Of a DNA stretch of 4,752 bases, positions 1-4,752 are shown in pieces. Position numbers and translations under genes: made by a program. The notes beneath the pieces were generated by a model. The model was not told the DNA's origin and did not search any database. It saw nothing but the letters and a program-made list of their open reading frames with translations. How positions within the stretch are numbered: position 1 is the stretch's first letter; every line of letters begins with the position of its first letter. The DNA comes from a virus (Duplodnaviria; Heunggongvirae; Uroviricota; Caudoviricetes), in the IMG/VR virus record IMGVR_UViG_2579778921_000002; one strand, 5' to 3'.

Positions 1-573
1 TTCTGGCATGTTTGCCGCAGGTCTGATCTTGTATATTGCAGTCAAACCAGACGTACATCTTGACCATATTCTTTTCGGCGACATGCTCGGGGTAACCATC
101 GGCGATATAATCCAGACGGTGATTATTGCCGGGCTGGTTACACTTGTTATTAGCGTAAAATGGCGGGATTTTTTGCTGTTCAGCTTTGATTATCAACAGG
201 CGCAGGCAAGCGGTTTGTAAGCGGTTTGCATACGAGATGTCTGCATTATGGGCTGCTGTGCATGGTCTCTCTGACCATTGTGGCGACGCTGAAAGCGGTA
301 GGTATCATTCTCTCCATTTCTCTGCTCATTGCGCCTGGCGCCATTGCGGTACTCCTGACACAACGCTTTCATATTGCGCTCCTACTGGCGATTGGCATAT
401 CGGTAATAGTGTCAATGACTGGTGTCTGGTTGTCCTTTTTTATCGACAGTGCACCAGCTCCGACGATTGTCGTCTTATTCGCGGTTGTGTTCATCATGAC
501 GTTCACCGTTACCAGCATCAACGCACGCACAAAGGGAAACACCCATACACAGGATTTGTCATCACCCAATTAG
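1..573 (+). pseudogene. sitD: 3' portion of an ABC-3 family metal (Mn/Fe-type) ABC transporter permease gene, SitD/YfeD/MntB-like, continuing upstream of the window. The reading frame is interrupted by an 11-bp insertion at 218-228: the upstream part is in frame 2 (2..220, ending at TAA 218-220) and the downstream part in frame 1 (229..573).
   Basis: The frame-2 translation (…LFGDMLGVTIGDIIQTVIIAGLVTLVISV…FDYQQAQASGL) and frame-1 translation (HTRCLHYGLLCMVSLTIVATLKAVGIILSISLLIAPGAIAVLLTQRF…) are both strongly hydrophobic, multi-helix and typical of ABC-3 permease C-terminal halves. Removing nt 218-228 joins them into one continuous protein. The symbol is a best guess from family resemblance and context, not a confirmed identity. 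Confidence 0.6.
208..228 (+). repeat. Imperfect tandem duplication: aagcggtttg (208-217), T (218), aagcggtttg (219-228). It is the cause of the frameshift and premature stop in the permease gene.
   Basis: Direct reading of the sequence; T218 with A219-A220 forms TAA in the upstream reading frame. Confidence 0.85.
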
Positions 574-771: not shown

Positions 772-924
772 CATAATCCCAATGATTACTCCCTGACAGG
801 GTTCGTAGGCCACTCAATATCAGGTGCAGTTGATGTATCAACACGGTTCAGCAGCATCCGATACTTTTTCCAGGCTTCCAGCAACGGGGTTTCTTCCTCC
901 GTTGCATATACAGCTCACCTTTTT

Positions 925-1218
925 TCACCCACGATTAACCAACAGCCAGACCAGCAGACACGCCACCACCGGCACAGCAAAATCCATCAGGCTTGCCACA
1001 TCCCATGCACGTGTATCAAAACCGCCCCACCACGGCATATTCATTCGCTTGCCATGCCCGAACATTTCGATCCAGCGATATTCTGCCTGGGTGTGTTCAC
1101 GCGCAATGAAGAACGTACAACCGGCTATCGCCCCGTAAGCCCAGTTCCCGGTAAAAAGACCAATCAGTAGCTGCGCAGCCACAGCACAAAGCGCATGAAG
1201 GAAAGGTGTTATATCCAT
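925..1218 (-). CDS. Hypothetical small membrane protein of 97 aa with two hydrophobic segments (N-terminal ALCAVAAQLLIGLF and C-terminal FAVPVVACLLVWLLV). Possibly a prophage cargo (moron) gene.
   Basis: ATG at 1216-1218 is preceded on the minus strand by a strong Shine-Dalgarno, GAAGGAGGAG (plus-strand 1221-1230), at good spacing. The ORF is uninterrupted and the hydrophobic segments are flanked by charged residues. The overlapping plus-strand ORFs have implausible composition. Confidence 0.6.
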   Translation of the reverse strand: MDITPFLHALCAVAAQLLIGLFTGNWAYGAIAGCTFFIAREHTQAEYRWIEMFGHGKRMNMPWWGGFDTRAWDVASLMDFAVPVVACLLVWLLVNRG

Positions 1219-1239: not shown

Positions 1240-1262
1240 AATAAAACGGGGCGCTCGGCCCC
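1240..1262 (-). terminator. Putative Rho-independent terminator for the minus-strand tail-fibre operon. On the minus strand it reads GGGGC-CGAGC-GCCCC followed by GTTTTATT.
   Basis: 5-bp all-GC stem at plus 1248-1252 and 1258-1262 with a 5-nt loop and a U-rich tract, located 7 nt downstream of the orf346 stop (1269-1271). Confidence 0.5.
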
Positions 1263-1268
1263 TTAATA

Positions 1269-2309
1269 TTATTTAGACGCAAGCGCCGCCTCAATTACAG
1301 ATAATCTTTGTCTTAATTCTGCGTTTTCTTCTTCCAGTGCTGTTATTCTGTCGTCTGACTCTCTGGCTACCTGAACAAGCAAGCCAGTAACACCAGAATA
1401 ATCTACTGTGTAATAACGTTCACCTTCTTCACCTTCCGATCCGCTCGCACCGTCCTGATATTTCATTGCGGAACCTACAACTTCTGGGATTGCTTCCAGA
1501 GCTTCCTGTGCAATGACACCAGCATAGGGCATACCGTTTTCTTTAAGCGTGTATGTATAGCCGTTCATTTTACGGATGCGGTCGGTTGCATTATCGATCA
1601 CCTGAATGTTGTCTTTCAGATCCCGGTCGGAATGCTGGTTAAATGCGGTGGCATGACATGCACCATTAACGCTTAACATATAGGTGTTATCGGTATTTTT
1701 CTGCGCATAGAACATATAAGCGCCACCATCAACACCGACTTCATAAACAACAGGACGGCTGGAATTTCCCCATAATAACGTCGACACACCAGAATACGCC
1801 GTACCTTGCGTGTTTAGTGTCATGGTCGACCCGTGATTAGCATATTTGATCTGCAATGAGTCTGTATTATCAAACTTAATAAGCGCGTTACTTCCCCGCA
1901 CACCATACGACATGAGACAGTTCCCCATCTTAAGGTAACCATCACTGCCTGGAAAAATTAAAGTTCCTCCGTAAAGATCACTAAAGTCCCAAAAGATACC
2001 TTTTGTCCCGTTATGTGTGACGATCCTCGTCATTGTATCTTTAGTACCATCAATATTTTTTCTGGTATATATGTCACTATAAGCGTTTTCCGTTTCACCA
2101 GTCTTATTTGACAAATGCAGCTTACCGCTGAATATAGTTCCAGTTGTTGGCAATGTTTTTTGATCATAGATTACATTGCAATAACCATTCCATGTTGTTT
2201 TATTGTCTACATAAGATTTTGTTGCGTAGCTTCCTTGATCGTTTTTTAATTTGCTAACGTCGGATTTTAGCGTTTTGATGTCATCAGGAATTACTGTCGA
2301 TGTAGCCAT
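1269..2309 (-). CDS. Phage tail fibre / receptor-binding-type protein of 346 aa. The N-terminal ~226 aa is a Gly/Thr/Asn/Tyr-rich, probably beta-rich domain. The C-terminal ~120 aa resembles the intramolecular chaperone auto-processing domain (Peptidase S74-like) of phage fibres and tailspikes.
   Basis: The C-terminal segment begins HSDRDLKDNIQVIDNATDRIRKMNGYTYTLKENGMPYAGVIAQEALEAIPEVV and ends in a predicted coiled coil (RITALEEENAELRQRLSVIEAALASK), matching the S-D-x-R-x-K-x-N-I signature of intramolecular chaperone domains. A GAGGAAG Shine-Dalgarno overlaps the stop of the upstream 93-aa ORF. Confidence 0.8.
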   Translation of the reverse strand: MATSTVIPDDIKTLKSDVSKLKNDQGSYATKSYVDNKTTWNGYCNVIYDQKTLPTTGTIFSGKLHLSNKTGETENAYSDIYTRKNIDGTKDTMTRIVTHNGTKGIFWDFSDLYGGTLIFPGSDGYLKMGNCLMSYGVRGSNALIKFDNTDSLQIKYANHGSTMTLNTQGTAYSGVSTLLWGNSSRPVVYEVGVDGGAYMFYAQKNTDNTYMLSVNGACHATAFNQHSDRDLKDNIQVIDNATDRIRKMNGYTYTLKENGMPYAGVIAQEALEAIPEVVGSAMKYQDGASGSEGEEGERYYTVDYSGVTGLLVQVARESDDRITALEEENAELRQRLSVIEAALASK

Positions 2310-2318
2310 TTTTCTTCC

Positions 2319-2600
2319 TCACATCCAGCCACGAAGTTGATGCTCAACAGCAACCACGTATTCATCGAATAATGACGATATTTGCGAATCATTAATGATG
2401 CGCACGTTTACAAAATATCCGTCTTCCTTAACACATACCGGTTCGCCATCTTCAGTCAGTTCTCCGGTTTCTTTGTACACGTTACCTATCACGTCGATAA
2501 GAATATCATCCTGCATCGACTCGTCATCATAATAGCCAATACTCTCCATAAAGGCCGAAAAGTCGGCCCTGTCTTCAAATTTGAGTGTTAAATCTTTCAT
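2319..2600 (-). CDS. Hypothetical small, highly acidic protein of 93 aa (22 Asp+Glu against 7 Lys+Arg by direct count). Translationally coupled to stf; possibly a fibre assembly or adaptor factor, or an acidic anti-defence-type protein.
   Basis: Its ATG (2598-2600) overlaps the stf stop (2600-2602) as TAATG on the minus strand. The ORF is uninterrupted with coding-like composition. No family was recognised from memory. Confidence 0.7.
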   Translation of the reverse strand: MKDLTLKFEDRADFSAFMESIGYYDDESMQDDILIDVIGNVYKETGELTEDGEPVCVKEDGYFVNVRIINDSQISSLFDEYVVAVEHQLRGWM

Positions 2601-4752
2601 TAGATTGACTCCCCCACCTGAGCATCAGTCAATGCCTTGTGCCATATTCTGAAATTCCTGACATGACCAAATAAATGACGTAACCCGGCTGTAGTCTGGC
2701 CTCCAATACGGATAATTGCGGTGTTCTGAATACAGGACCATGTGGTTTTTGTTTCGCTGGATATATGCCCGTTACTTACTGAGCACGTAGACTGCTCTGA
2801 CTTTACACGCATCCCCATAACCATTTTTTCAAGCGATGCGTTTTCGTTTACCCGTCTGTTAGCCAAACCTATATCACAATAAGGAAATCCGTCGTAATCT
2901 GTTCCTCCAATATCGCAATAAGGAAATCCGTCGTAATCTGTTGAACGACCGAAGCCAAGAATAATAGCCGCTCCGGTTTGATGACCGCCGGTATCAAAAA
3001 CACGTGGCGCTGCATTTGGCGTTTTATACCAGTTCTTATGTACCTCACAAAGAACCGTAAAAGGAAGATTATAAAGATTATTCTTAATTGGAACTGTAAC
3101 TATATCGCTTGCGCGGGTCGCCGCCGTCGCTCCTGATATAATAAAAGATGATACACAAGGCCCATCTTCTACTTGTGGGGTGGCCAGATAAATATAGTCA
3201 CCAGATACGGTTGCCCCGCTCTGCTTAGGAGAATACTGTATCTGAGAGCCTATTTTTAACTCCCCATCAATTGCCTGAATTGTTGCCTCTGCAAAAATCC
3301 ATCCGGTAGCTTCGTCCTTTCTGACTCTCGCTGTAATCCTTGAGGCAGCACCGCCTGTCATATTAATTTCAAGCGTTTGTGTATCAATATACGCATCACC
3401 AAGAAAAGTTGTTGCGCTACCGTCATATTTATCAAACCGGATACGCAACCTTACCTGCAGTTCTGTTTTAAAACGACATGAGGTTGTCACGTGTTTATTA
3501 TCGCCTGAGACATCAACTGACTTTGTTGCAGCAATTGATGCCATATTAATGGCTGAGGTTTGCCCAATCAGAGAATCGTTGCAGACAAACTTTCCATAGG
3601 TAAAACCAAAATTATCCGTCCCTGTTTCGGGCACATCCATATTTGACGATCGCCCCCAACTGGCAGGGCTTTCCGAATTGAGCATGTAGTTTGTTCTTTG
3701 CCCCTCAATAAGCAGGCCATCACGTTCAAATCGTGGCTCGTCAATGGCAGCCTCTGTCAGCACACCAGATTTGTTAATATAGGTTGCTTTCGATGCACGT
3801 TTAAACTTAACAATCTTGTCGCCAGGCATCGTTATTTCATCGTCACCAATAACAATTTTTTTATATGACGGCGAAAAGCCCGTAATCATATCCAGCGAAT
3901 CGTTAAATGGTATCCACACATCAGGCAGCGGCTGTAAGACATATTTATACGGCTCCGCAGCCTGGCTTGCGTACTCTCTGGCTGCATCTTCGCTTGCTTT
4001 AGCTGCCGTCTGGCTTGCTGCCGATGCTTTCGCTGAGTTCGCAGCCGCTGTTTCGCTCACCTTTGCGTTGGTTTCACTGGTTTTTGCTGCTTTTTGACTG
4101 TTAGCTGATGCAGTGGCAGAAGCAGCCGCCGCGCTTGCAGAACTGGCTGCGGCACTCTCGCTTTGAGCCGCTGCATCCTGACTGCTTTTCGCCGCAGTTT
4201 CACTGGCTTTGGCATTCGTTTCGCTGGTCTTCGCTGCCGTCTGGCTGGACTTTGCGTTAGTTTCACTCGTCTTCGCAGCTTTCTGGCTGTTAGCCGCAGC
4301 AGTTGCTGATCCAGCTGCTGAAGTCGCAGAACCGGCTGCCGCGCTCTCGCTTTGGGCTGCTGCAACCTGGCTGTTTTTTGCCGCAGTTTCACTGGCTTTA
4401 GCATTCGTTTCGCTGGTTTTCGCTGCCGTCTGGCTGGACTTTGCGTTGGTTTCGCTCGTCTTTGCGGCTGTCTCACTGTTTTTCGCGTTGGTTTCTGATT
4501 TTTTGGCTGCTGTCGCGGAGTTTGCCGATGCAGTCTGTGAGGTCGCTGCCGCCTGTGCGCTGTTAGCTGCATTCGTTTCTGAGGTTTTCGCCGCGTTCTT
4601 CGATGATGCCGCTGCAGTTTCGGATTTCTTTGCCGCCGCTGCGCTCTGAGAGGCGGCTTCAGCGTTGCGTGCCGCTTCTTCCACCATTTCCTCAAAACGA
4701 CGCAATGCCTCCGGCATGACATCATCTTCCGTCATGGCACCGAGAAAATCAT
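2600..4752 (-). CDS. stf: Lambda Stf-type side tail fibre protein, 5'-partial (the N-terminus lies beyond the window end). It has a conserved Stf segment, an Ala/Ser/Thr-rich heptad-repeat shaft, and a divergent C-terminal region of about 450 aa ending in a concanavalin A-like (LamG-type) lectin-like domain.
   Basis: The frame stays open to the window edge (…DFLGA-MTEDDVMPEALRRFEEMVEEAARNA), which matches the lambda Stf segment …DFLCAMTEDD…LRR…MVEE…ARNA as recalled from memory. It is followed by about 235 aa of KTSETNA-type repeats. The C-terminus, LRHLFGHVRNFRIWHKALTDAQV, resembles the terminal strand motif of LamG/ConA-like domains. Confidence 0.9.
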   Translation of the reverse strand, partial: DFLGAMTEDDVMPEALRRFEEMVEEAARNAEAASQSAAAAKKSETAAASSKNAAKTSETNAANSAQAAATSQTASANSATAAKKSETNAKNSETAAKTSETNAKSSQTAAKTSETNAKASETAAKNSQVAAAQSESAAAGSATSAAGSATAAANSQKAAKTSETNAKSSQTAAKTSETNAKASETAAKSSQDAAAQSESAAASSASAAAASATASANSQKAAKTSETNAKVSETAAANSAKASAASQTAAKASEDAAREYASQAAEPYKYVLQPLPDVWIPFNDSLDMITGFSPSYKKIVIGDDEITMPGDKIVKFKRASKATYINKSGVLTEAAIDEPRFERDGLLIEGQRTNYMLNSESPASWGRSSNMDVPETGTDNFGFTYGKFVCNDSLIGQTSAINMASIAATKSVDVSGDNKHVTTSCRFKTELQVRLRIRFDKYDGSATTFLGDAYIDTQTLEINMTGGAASRITARVRKDEATGWIFAEATIQAIDGELKIGSQIQYSPKQSGATVSGDYIYLATPQVEDGPCVSSFIISGATAATRASDIVTVPIKNNLYNLPFTVLCEVHKNWYKTPNAAPRVFDTGGHQTGAAIILGFGRSTDYDGFPYCDIGGTDYDGFPYCDIGLANRRVNENASLEKMVMGMRVKSEQSTCSVSNGHISSETKTTWSCIQNTAIIRIGGQTTAGLRHLFGHVRNFRIWHKALTDAQVGESI
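2867..2948 (-). repeat. In-frame tandem duplication of about 39 bp inside the stf C-terminal domain, encoding (S/G)TDYDGFPYCDIG twice.
   Basis: Plus-strand 2871-2909 and 2910-2948 share 33 consecutive positions with one mismatch (a/g), which is synonymous (TGT/TGC Cys) on the coding strand. Confidence 0.9.
3956..4663 (-). repeat. Ala/Ser/Thr-rich repeat region of stf with 21-bp (7-aa) periodicity. It contains a higher-order 189-bp (63-aa) tandem duplication (two full units at about 4097..4474, plus a partial third toward 4040).
   Basis: The anchor gccgcagtttcactggcttt occurs at 4191 and 4380 (period 189 bp) with about 85-90% identity over the surrounding unit. The protein shows KAAKTSETNAKSSQTAAKTSETNAKASETAAK(N/S)SQ… twice. 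Confidence 0.85.

What the first reader, a model, noticed from the sequence alone, without database searches (positions are those of the whole stretch)
2319..2600. Very acidic 93-aa protein translationally coupled between two fibre genes
Direct counting gives 22 Asp+Glu versus 7 Lys+Arg (net charge about -15), with acidic clusters such as YYDDESMQDDILID and GELTEDGEPVCVKEDG. Known tail-fibre assembly proteins are not typically this acidic. Small, strongly acidic phage proteins are often DNA mimics or anti-defence factors (Ocr-type and several anti-CRISPR proteins are established examples), but its position and coupling within the late fibre operon argue instead for an adaptor or chaperone for the downstream fibre. 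Either way it appears uncharacterised.
Basis: partly seen in the sequence, partly recalled or inferred. Interest (0 to 1): 0.55.

Follow-up and report, generated by a model that had tools for sequence, protein, structure and literature searches.

The report
Small acidic tail-fibre joint protein
This 93-residue, very acidic phage protein is real, has no known function, and is always encoded right after tail fibres that end in one particular sugar-binding-type module, so it is most likely an accessory or joint subunit of that fibre rather than an anti-defence factor.

Summary
Window 2319-2600 (minus strand) encodes a 93-aa protein with 22 Asp+Glu against 7 Lys+Arg (charge -15, pI 4.05). It is wedged between two fibre genes, with a TAATG overlap upstream and a 9-nt gap downstream. 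It belongs to PHROG 1361, whose function is unknown. It has no Pfam, NCBIfam, PADLOC or PDB relative. The AlphaFold model is confident (pLDDT 82.6) but matches no solved fold.

Homologues occur in lambdoid, T1-like, Dhillonvirus, Nonagvirus, T5-like, rV5-like and P1-like phages of enterobacteria. In every locus I examined where the upstream gene was visible, the gene directly follows a fibre gene ending in one conserved ~430-aa module (GTA head-spike-fibre-like plus LamG-like).

The downstream fibre is optional. Phage 21 lacks it yet keeps the small protein intact. When a downstream fibre is present, it always starts with the peptide M-x-T-x-T-x-IP-x-DI-x-x-LK, whatever its body, and it brings its own chaperone.

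I conclude that the protein partners the upstream fibre's end module. It probably forms the socket for an exchangeable distal fibre; a purely transient chaperone role is the main rival. A DNA-mimic or anti-defence role is not supported. This is a new family of a known kind of protein. Interest is moderate.

The parts
2319..2600 (-). orf93: the small acidic protein (93 aa; PHROG 1361). Predicted fold is b1-a1-a2-b2-b3-b4-b5-a3 followed by a conserved flexible C-terminal tail (L-R-x-W-x).
2609..2618 (-). Shine-Dalgarno-like GGTGGGGGAG, 8 nt before the orf93 ATG and inside the end of stf. The stf stop and the orf93 start overlap (TAATG).
   Evidence: read from sequence
2603..3934 (-). C-terminal ~443-aa module of the side tail fibre Stf. 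It begins at QPLPDVWIPFNDSL and ends at RHLFGHVRNFRIWHKALTD. It is GTA head-spike-fibre-like plus LamG-like, and is the invariable upstream partner of orf93.
3935..4752 (-). Ala/Ser/Thr-rich repetitive shaft of Stf. The gene runs off the window; it is 791 aa in the closest genome.
1269..2309 (-). orf346: the distal fibre, with a C-terminal Peptidase_S74 intramolecular chaperone (aa 227-278, nt 1476-1631).
2265..2309 (-). N-terminal 'peg' of orf346 (MATSTVIPDDIKTLK). This is the conserved motif M-x-T-x-T-x-IP-x-DI-x-x-LK, shared by otherwise unrelated distal fibres that follow the small gene.
1248..1262 (-). G+C-rich hairpin followed by a T run. This terminator-like site closes the stf-orf93-orf346 unit.

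Best explanation
orf93 is a late-expressed accessory subunit dedicated to one type of tail-fibre end: the ~430-aa GTA-spike-fibre-like/LamG-like module at the C-terminus of the upstream fibre (Stf here).

Proposed mechanism:
- It is made in step with Stf, through the overlapping stop and start codons.
- It binds conserved parts of the module through its conserved beta-sheet strands (b1, b4-b5) and its conserved C-terminal L-R-x-W tail.
- Its variable, strongly acidic helices and loop face the solvent.
- It stays on the fibre tip as a cap.
- Where a distal fibre gene follows (orf346 here), the capped module is the socket for that fibre's conserved N-terminal peg (M-x-T-x-T-x-IP-x-DI-x-x-LK). 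Together they form a three-piece, exchangeable fibre-to-fibre joint.

Shown here:
- The gene is real and conserved.
- It is strictly linked to the upstream module.
- The distal fibre is optional.
- The peg occurs only in these systems.
- The protein is unrelated to known chaperone families.

Inferred:
- Physical binding to the module.
- Presence in the virion.
- The socket role.
For: Linkage to the upstream module:
- In 94 of 95 loci the small gene directly follows (overlap or gap of 0-23 nt) a fibre gene carrying the module. The one exception is cut by a contig end.
- The same arrangement holds in lambdoid, Drexlerviridae, Dhillonvirus, Nonagvirus, T5-like, rV5-like and P1-like phages and in an unclassified siphovirus prophage.
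- The module occurs in 219 phage records and the small gene in 181. A 'missing' case, AKFV33, turned out to hold a divergent copy (HMM E 2.6e-15).
- Within rV5-like phages, the rV5 gp41 allele ends in an S74 chaperone and has neither the module nor the small gene. The nimi allele has both.

Independence from the distal fibre:
- Phage 21 has no peg-bearing protein anywhere in its genome. It still keeps a full-length copy with all invariant residues.

Specificity of the peg:
- The peg heads S74 fibres of 346-366 aa, 574-aa T-shaped fibres, 225-aa stubs, and a 365-aa Gp34_trimer fibre that has its own Tfa.
- All 60 tblastn hits to the peg come from phages that also carry the small gene, and wherever both coordinates were listed the peg lies just downstream of it.
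- Homologues of the IrisVonRoten distal fibre in phages without the small gene align only from residue 27-49 onward.

Structure:
- The AF2 model is confident (pLDDT 82.6, pTM 0.70) with a disordered but conserved tail; W92 is invariant.
- Conserved segments are b1, b4-b5 and the tail. The charge sits on variable segments.

Literature: the BASEL paper places the IrisVonRoten distal fibre Gp24 on the proximal fibre Gp22, which carries this module (PMC11990801).
Against: - There is no direct evidence of binding or of presence in virions. AKFV33 virion proteomics covered only four gel bands (PMC3326045).
- D-less phages keep the protein. That is just as well explained by a transient chaperone that never enters the virion.
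- rV5-like copies lack the R-x-W tail and several charged sheet residues. The conserved surfaces are therefore not universal.
- Nearly identical modules (88-100% identity across the alignment bins) pair with small proteins only 48% identical. No allele-specific co-evolution supports an interface.
- Beta-sandwich lectin domains usually need no partner.
Confidence: 0.45

Rival explanations
1. Transient assembly chaperone. orf93 helps the upstream fibre's C-terminal module fold or trimerise, occupying the tfa slot after the fibre gene. It is then released and is not in the virion. The distal fibre's peg docks directly on the module.
For: - Its position immediately after the fibre gene matches that of Tfa-type chaperones.
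- It is strictly linked to the module even where no distal fibre exists.
- In rV5-like phages, alleles alternate between a fibre end with an S74 intramolecular chaperone and a fibre end with the module plus the small gene.
- It is small, acidic and soluble-looking, with a conserved binding face.
- Different subfamilies of the small protein serve almost identical modules, as expected for a helper that recognises conserved features.
Against: - The module is built of globular beta-sandwich domains, one of them related to the RcGTA head spike fibre. From general knowledge, such domains usually fold unaided.
- This reading leaves unexplained why the peg is never found without the small gene.
Confidence: 0.3
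2. orf93 serves the downstream fibre (orf346) only, either as its adaptor to Stf or as its chaperone.
For: - Close coupling to orf346: a 9-nt gap, the same reading frame and an SD overlapping the stop codon.
- The peg-bearing fibres always sit directly after the small gene.
- In PhiR46_1 the small protein (95% identity) and the peg (97%) stay with each other, while the module is only 14-47% identical across most of its length.
Against: - Phage 21, ev243 and similar lambdoids, and the rV5-like phages, keep the small gene without any such fibre. The copies in phage 21 and ev243 also retain all invariant residues; the rV5-like copies do not.
- The downstream fibres carry their own folding devices: S74, or a separate Tfa.
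- The co-inheritance with the peg is what simple linkage predicts.
Confidence: 0.1
3. Charge-based shield or receptor mimic. The acidic protein masks the lectin-like module inside the producing cell, or keeps fibres from sticking to anionic envelope glycans and to one another. It has no assembly role.
For: - The negative charge is conserved while the sequence carrying it is not (a2, the b3-b4 loop, and the a3 region).
- The module is related to a capsule-binding head spike fibre (the function of that fibre is from my own knowledge of the RcGTA work).
Against: This is purely inferential, and no precedent was found in the searches made. It does not explain the conserved neutral strands and the tail.
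Confidence: 0.07
4. DNA mimic or anti-defence protein (Ocr-, ArdA- or Acr-like) carried in the late operon.
For: Only its size and its net charge of -15.
Against: - It holds a fixed position between fibre genes in at least seven unrelated phage lineages, both virulent and temperate.
- It sits in the late fibre gene cluster, with start and stop coupled to the neighbouring fibre genes.
- The fold is alpha/beta with no match to Ocr, Ard or any Acr structure in the PDB.
- There is no PADLOC hit.
- The conserved residues are not the acidic ones.
Confidence: 0.03

Closest known systems
Tail fibre assembly proteins of the Caudo_TAP family (lambda Tfa, Mu gpU, P2 gpG, P1 U)
   Same: Both are small proteins encoded directly after a fibre gene and specific for one type of fibre C-terminus. 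Some Tfa proteins stay bound to the fibre tip (own knowledge).
   Different: There is no sequence or profile similarity: no Pfam hit, and hhalign probability 0.3%. There is no fold match. orf93 is half the size. It serves a globular lectin-like module rather than a trimeric beta-helical tip. In the P1-like locus both kinds of protein occur side by side, each after its own fibre.
T4 long-tail-fibre joint proteins gp35 and gp36 (own knowledge)
   Same: In both cases, genes lying between the proximal and distal fibre genes encode the connection between two fibre segments.
   Different: The T4 proteins are larger, are not related in sequence, and are not known to be exchangeable across phage families. 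Here the joint would be the fibre's own end module, a 93-aa protein, and a 15-aa peg.
Peptidase_S74 intramolecular chaperone domains (K1F endosialidase, T5 pb1)
   Same: It is an alternative solution to finishing a fibre end. In rV5-like phages it is the allelic alternative to 'module + small gene'.
   Different: S74 acts in cis and is cleaved off. orf93 is a separate polypeptide without protease motifs. S74 is present in the neighbouring orf346, not in orf93.
Branched lateral tail fibres of T5-like phages DT57C and DT571/2 (LtfA/LtfB; PMC4728585, PMC10713586)
   Same: Both are two-protein fibres in which the second fibre is attached through the first. T5-like phages with the module (IrisVonRoten, AKFV33) have the same gene order with the small gene in between.
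   Different: DT57C LtfA ends in its own S74 domain. The DT57C papers searched mention no small gene between ltfA and ltfB. The attachment is therefore of another type.
Ocr, ArdA and acidic anti-CRISPR proteins
   Same: Small size and a strong net negative charge.
   Different: Fold, genomic position, expression class and conservation pattern all differ.

Membership tests
PHROG 1361 (unknown function; also FIG00639828 / VOG7707 in annotations) | Full-length match to the family profile | tested here: met
   E 2.5e-46, residues 1-93 on profile positions 1-92 of 92.
Caudo_TAP tail fibre assembly proteins (PF02413) | Match to the Pfam profile, or profile-profile similarity to a member | tested here: not met
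   No Pfam family at E <= 1. hhalign of the family alignment against a Caudo_TAP protein from L101 gave probability 0.3%.
Caudo_TAP tail fibre assembly proteins (PF02413) | Gene directly downstream of the fibre gene it serves | tested here: met
   1-nt overlap with stf. The same arrangement is seen in 94 of 95 loci.
Ocr/ArdA-type DNA mimics | High density of surface carboxylates | tested here: met
   22 D+E in 93 aa, charge -15.4.
Ocr/ArdA-type DNA mimics | Elongated helical fold that imitates B-DNA, with structural similarity to known mimics | tested here: not met
Ocr/ArdA-type DNA mimics | Early expression, separate from virion genes | tested here: not met
   It lies inside the late fibre gene cluster in every lineage.
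Anti-CRISPR proteins | Similarity to a described Acr family, or linkage to aca genes | tested here: inconclusive
   No Acr library was available. There is no PDB sequence or fold match, and no HTH gene is adjacent.
Virion structural fibre joint proteins (functional class, T4 gp35/gp36-like) | Presence in purified virions at the junction of two fibre segments | not testable with these tools
   No proteomic data for the protein were found; AKFV33 proteomics covered four bands only.
Peptidase_S74 intramolecular chaperone | Match to PF13884 | tested here: not met
   There is no hit for orf93. The neighbouring orf346 does match, E 6.3e-14.

The most novel reading that the evidence does not exclude
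The small protein is the key piece of a universal plug-and-socket joint. A lectin-tipped proximal fibre plus this 93-aa cap accepts any distal fibre that carries the 15-residue peg M-x-T-x-T-x-IP-x-DI-x-x-LK. Siphoviruses and myoviruses of enterobacteria would thereby swap or stack receptor-binding fibres. This includes a multiple-inversion fibre segment in P1-like phage-plasmids.
Probability: 0.35. Interest if true: 0.7.

Novelty: new variant of a known kind. Interest (0 to 1): 0.5.

Why it matters
Tail fibres decide which bacteria a phage or an engineered phage particle can reach. A compact joint made of one fibre-end module, a 93-aa protein and a 15-residue peg could be moved between phage families. 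That would be a practical handle for mounting new receptor-binding fibres on lambda-, T5- or P1-based particles.

It would also explain how two-part 'branched' fibres are held together in many coliphages. In addition, the finding gives a testable function to a gene annotated 'hypothetical' in about 18% of complete E. coli genomes (988 of 5426). If the protein is only a transient chaperone, it is still a new family of fibre helper, and it would have to be co-expressed when such fibres are transplanted.

Tried and rejected
- Modelling a complex failed. No natural fusion exists among the retrieved homologues; the longer ones are frameshifted copies or fusions with the membrane-protein gene.
- The afdb50 fold library was not available.
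The fibre module could only have been folded without an alignment.
- The profile search of 1.84 billion representatives found long proteins with 5-10 matched stretches. These are PKD-type repeat proteins rich in Asp and Gly, and I judged the matches compositional, not homologous.
- The mosaic comparison, meant to tell whether the small protein co-varies with the module or with the distal fibre, gave patterns explained by simple linkage. I did not use it as evidence of binding.
- Literature searches found no paper that discusses the small protein. They covered DT57C LtfA/LtfB, the two BASEL papers, AKFV33 proteomics, CRISPRi-ART, chimeric Stf engineering, and adaptor/proximal/distal fibre terms.
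- IMG/VR scans with divergent single queries returned few loci.
- The GTDB scan was limited by its peptide patterns.

Full report
**1. What is in the window**

The window is the end of a lambdoid (Rac/phage-21-like) prophage of E. coli. Apart from three short insertions it matches NZ_CP019256 exactly.

On the minus strand the gene order is:
- stf. The shaft runs off the window; the gene encodes 791 aa in the reference genome.
- orf93 (2319-2600).
- orf346 (1269-2309).
- A hairpin terminator (1248-1262).
- A 97-aa membrane-protein gene (925-1218).
- A tfa remnant.

On the plus strand lies sitD. Phage 21 carries the same junction with sitABCD inside its genome. The sit genes here are therefore likely phage cargo.

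**2. The observation**

orf93 encodes 93 aa with 12 D, 10 E, 4 K and 3 R, giving charge -15.4 and pI 4.05. The stf stop and the orf93 start overlap (TAATG), with a G-rich Shine-Dalgarno 8 nt upstream. Nine bases separate the orf93 stop from the orf346 start.

The ORF is a gene. It gives a full-length match to PHROG 1361, E 2.5e-46. Homologues occur in 181 phage records. There are 217 close clusters and 356 at profile level in the metagenome protein collection. Among 37 close alleles there are no internal stops, and variation is enriched at the third codon position. The window allele (>=80% DNA identity) is present in 988 of 5426 complete E. coli genomes, and the rows listed annotate it as hypothetical.

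**3. What it is not**

Pfam, NCBIfam, PADLOC and PDB sequence searches gave nothing.

Profile-profile comparison with a Caudo_TAP tail fibre assembly protein gives probability 0.3%. The protein is thus neither a Tfa-type chaperone nor a recognisable DNA mimic or anti-CRISPR.

**4. The synteny rule**

I inspected annotated loci in:
- lambdoid phages: phage 21, ev243, Tritos, PhiR46_1, 3W
- Drexlerviridae: KarlJaspers, tinuso
- Dhillonvirus: KarlBarth
- Nonagvirus: JenP2
- T5-like phages: IrisVonRoten, AKFV33, and metagenomic contigs
- rV5-like phages: nimi
- a P1-like phage-plasmid
- an unclassified siphovirus prophage

.

In all of them the small gene directly follows a large fibre gene. These fibres differ in their N-terminal attachment and shaft. 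All end in the same ~430-aa module, which starts at QPLPDVWIPFNDSL and ends at RHLFGH(I/V)RNFRIWHK.

With HMMs of the module and of the small protein, 94 of 95 loci show the pair. The exception is cut by a contig end.

The module matches three things:
- the NCBIfam GTA_spike_fiber domain
- the RcGTA head spike fibre Rcc01080, PDB 6TB9, E 1e-7
- weakly, Laminin_G_3

The BASEL authors describe it as a galectin-like domain protruding from the proximal fibre of IrisVonRoten (PMC11990801).

tblastn finds the module in 219 phage records and the small protein in 181. In AKFV33, which the small-protein tblastn appears to have missed, the 88-aa ORF in the expected place matches the family HMM at E 2.6e-15.

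There is a natural control inside one phage group. The rV5 gp41 allele ends in an S74 intramolecular chaperone and has neither the module nor the small gene. The nimi allele has both.

**5. The third gene**

A fibre gene follows the small gene after about 9 nt in most lineages. The bodies of these fibres are unrelated:
- 346-366-aa S74 fibres
- 574-aa T-shaped fibres
- 225-aa stubs annotated 'chaperone of endosialidase'
- in the P1-like element, a 365-aa Gp34_trimer fibre followed by its own Caudo_TAP Tfa

.

All begin with M-[AVT]-[TS]-x-T-x-IP-x-DI-x-x-LK. All 60 tblastn hits to this N-terminus are in phages that also carry the small gene, and where both coordinates were listed the hit lies just downstream of it.

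Homologues of the IrisVonRoten distal fibre in phages without the small gene (phiEco32-like phages, Sloth, DT571/2 LtfA) align only from residue 27-49 onward. Those in phages with it align from residue 1. The peg is therefore specific to 'module + small gene' systems.

The distal fibre is nevertheless dispensable. Phage 21, ev243 and relatives, and the rV5-like phages, lack it. A six-frame scan of the whole phage 21 genome finds no peg. Phage 21 and ev243 still keep every invariant residue of the small protein.

**6. Where conservation and charge lie**

The invariant residues are M1, D3, F17, D36, G39, E53, G61, N65, R67 and W92. Nearly invariant are T5, K7, F8, E27, Q30, V64, V83 and R90.

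The low-entropy segments are b1, b4-b5 and the C-terminal tail. The negative charge sits in the most variable segments: a2, the b3-b4 loop and the a3 region.

This is the pattern of a protein that binds a conserved partner through a sheet and a tail, and shows an acidic, freely evolving face to the solvent. It is not the pattern of a mimic whose function depends on the exact placement of carboxylates.

rV5-like copies lack the tail and several charged sheet residues. I cannot explain this beyond their deep divergence.

**7. Mechanism**

The shown facts tie the protein to the upstream module first and to the distal fibre second. I commit to the joint model:
- The protein binds and caps the module.
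- The capped module receives the peg of whatever distal fibre is encoded next.
- I put this at 0.45.

The main rival, at 0.30, is a transient chaperone for the module, with the peg docking on the module itself. That rival is favoured by the tfa-like gene position, by persistence in D-less phages, and by the alternation with S74 ends.

The two differ only in whether the protein stays in the virion and touches the peg. None of my tools could test that.

The mosaic comparisons do not discriminate. P1-like modules are 88-100% identical to the window's across the alignment bins, but their small proteins are 48% identical. In PhiR46_1 the small protein and the peg are 95-97% identical, while most of the module is 14-47% identical. 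This shows that subfamilies of the small protein are interchangeable among module alleles, and that recombination often breaks at the conserved 3' end of the fibre gene.

A charge shield gets 0.07, and anti-defence 0.03.

**8. Distribution**

All members with a named source come from phages or prophages of Escherichia, Shigella, Salmonella and Atlantibacter. Records named Campylobacter or Listeria phage are near-copies of the coliphage sequences. Several are short or unannotated, so the host labels are doubtful.

A scan of one genome per GTDB species found only Escherichia species, a mis-binned MAG and one weak hit.

**9. Verdict**

This is a new family within the known class of tail-fibre accessory proteins. 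It may be one part of an exchangeable three-piece fibre joint.

Noticed in passing
window 206-216, 1220-1227, 2864-2902: The window differs from the closest genome (NZ_CP019256) only by three insertions and no substitutions. Each insertion looks like two alternative alleles of a polymorphic site placed one after the other.
- 206-216: GCAAGCGGTTT next to GTAAGCGGTTT, which frameshifts sitD.
- 1220-1227: a chimera of the two known leaders upstream of orf97, creating GGAGGAGT before its ATG.
- 2864-2902: two 39-nt alleles in tandem, duplicating TDYDGFPYCDIG in Stf.

This pattern suggests an assembly or consensus artefact rather than biology. None of the insertions touches orf93.
   Followed up: partly
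window 925-1218 (minus strand): A 97-aa protein with predicted membrane segments (PHROG 1443, unknown function). It has its own Shine-Dalgarno and lies behind the terminator. In lambdoid phages it follows either the distal fibre or, as in phage 21 and ev243, the small acidic gene directly. It looks like a moron, perhaps for superinfection exclusion. It has no Pfam or PADLOC match.
   Followed up: partly
window 1-573 (plus strand) and L002/L109 (phage 21): sitD, and in the reference genome sitABCD, abuts the prophage end exactly as it does inside the genome of phage 21. The iron/manganese transporter is therefore probably phage-borne cargo rather than chromosomal flank.
   Followed up: partly
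L100-L102 (P1-like phage-plasmid contigs; small gene at 5001-5279): In P1-like elements the module, the small gene and a peg-bearing Gp34_trimer fibre lie inside the Cin-type invertible fibre segment. Three contigs show three different arrangements, which suggests several crossover sites. One orientation gives a single long S fibre. Another gives the jointed two-part fibre.
   Followed up: partly
window about 3970-4650 (minus strand, Stf shaft): The Ala/Ser/Thr/Lys-rich shaft (AAKTSETNAKSS...) contains internal direct repeats of about 231 nt at 84% identity (4061-4291 against 4250-4480). These also generate long spurious ORFs on both strands.
   Followed up: no
window about 786-905 (minus strand): A remnant of a tail fibre assembly (tfa) gene, annotated as a pseudogene in the reference genome, lies between orf97 and sitD. 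It suggests that an older Stf/Tfa-type fibre end was replaced here.
   Followed up: no
L003, L110 (Drexlerviridae), third gene: In T1-like phages the gene after the small protein encodes only about 225 aa: the peg, a short coiled coil, and an S74 chaperone domain. After self-cleavage little more than a stub would remain. Its role (cap, or minimal distal fibre) is unclear.
   Followed up: no
one search hits P0266, P0281, P0325 and others: Very long Asp/Gly-rich PKD-type repeat proteins score against the family profile in 5-10 stretches each. They resemble the strand-turn-strand 'DGYFVNVRIxDD' segment. I judged these matches compositional.
   Followed up: partly
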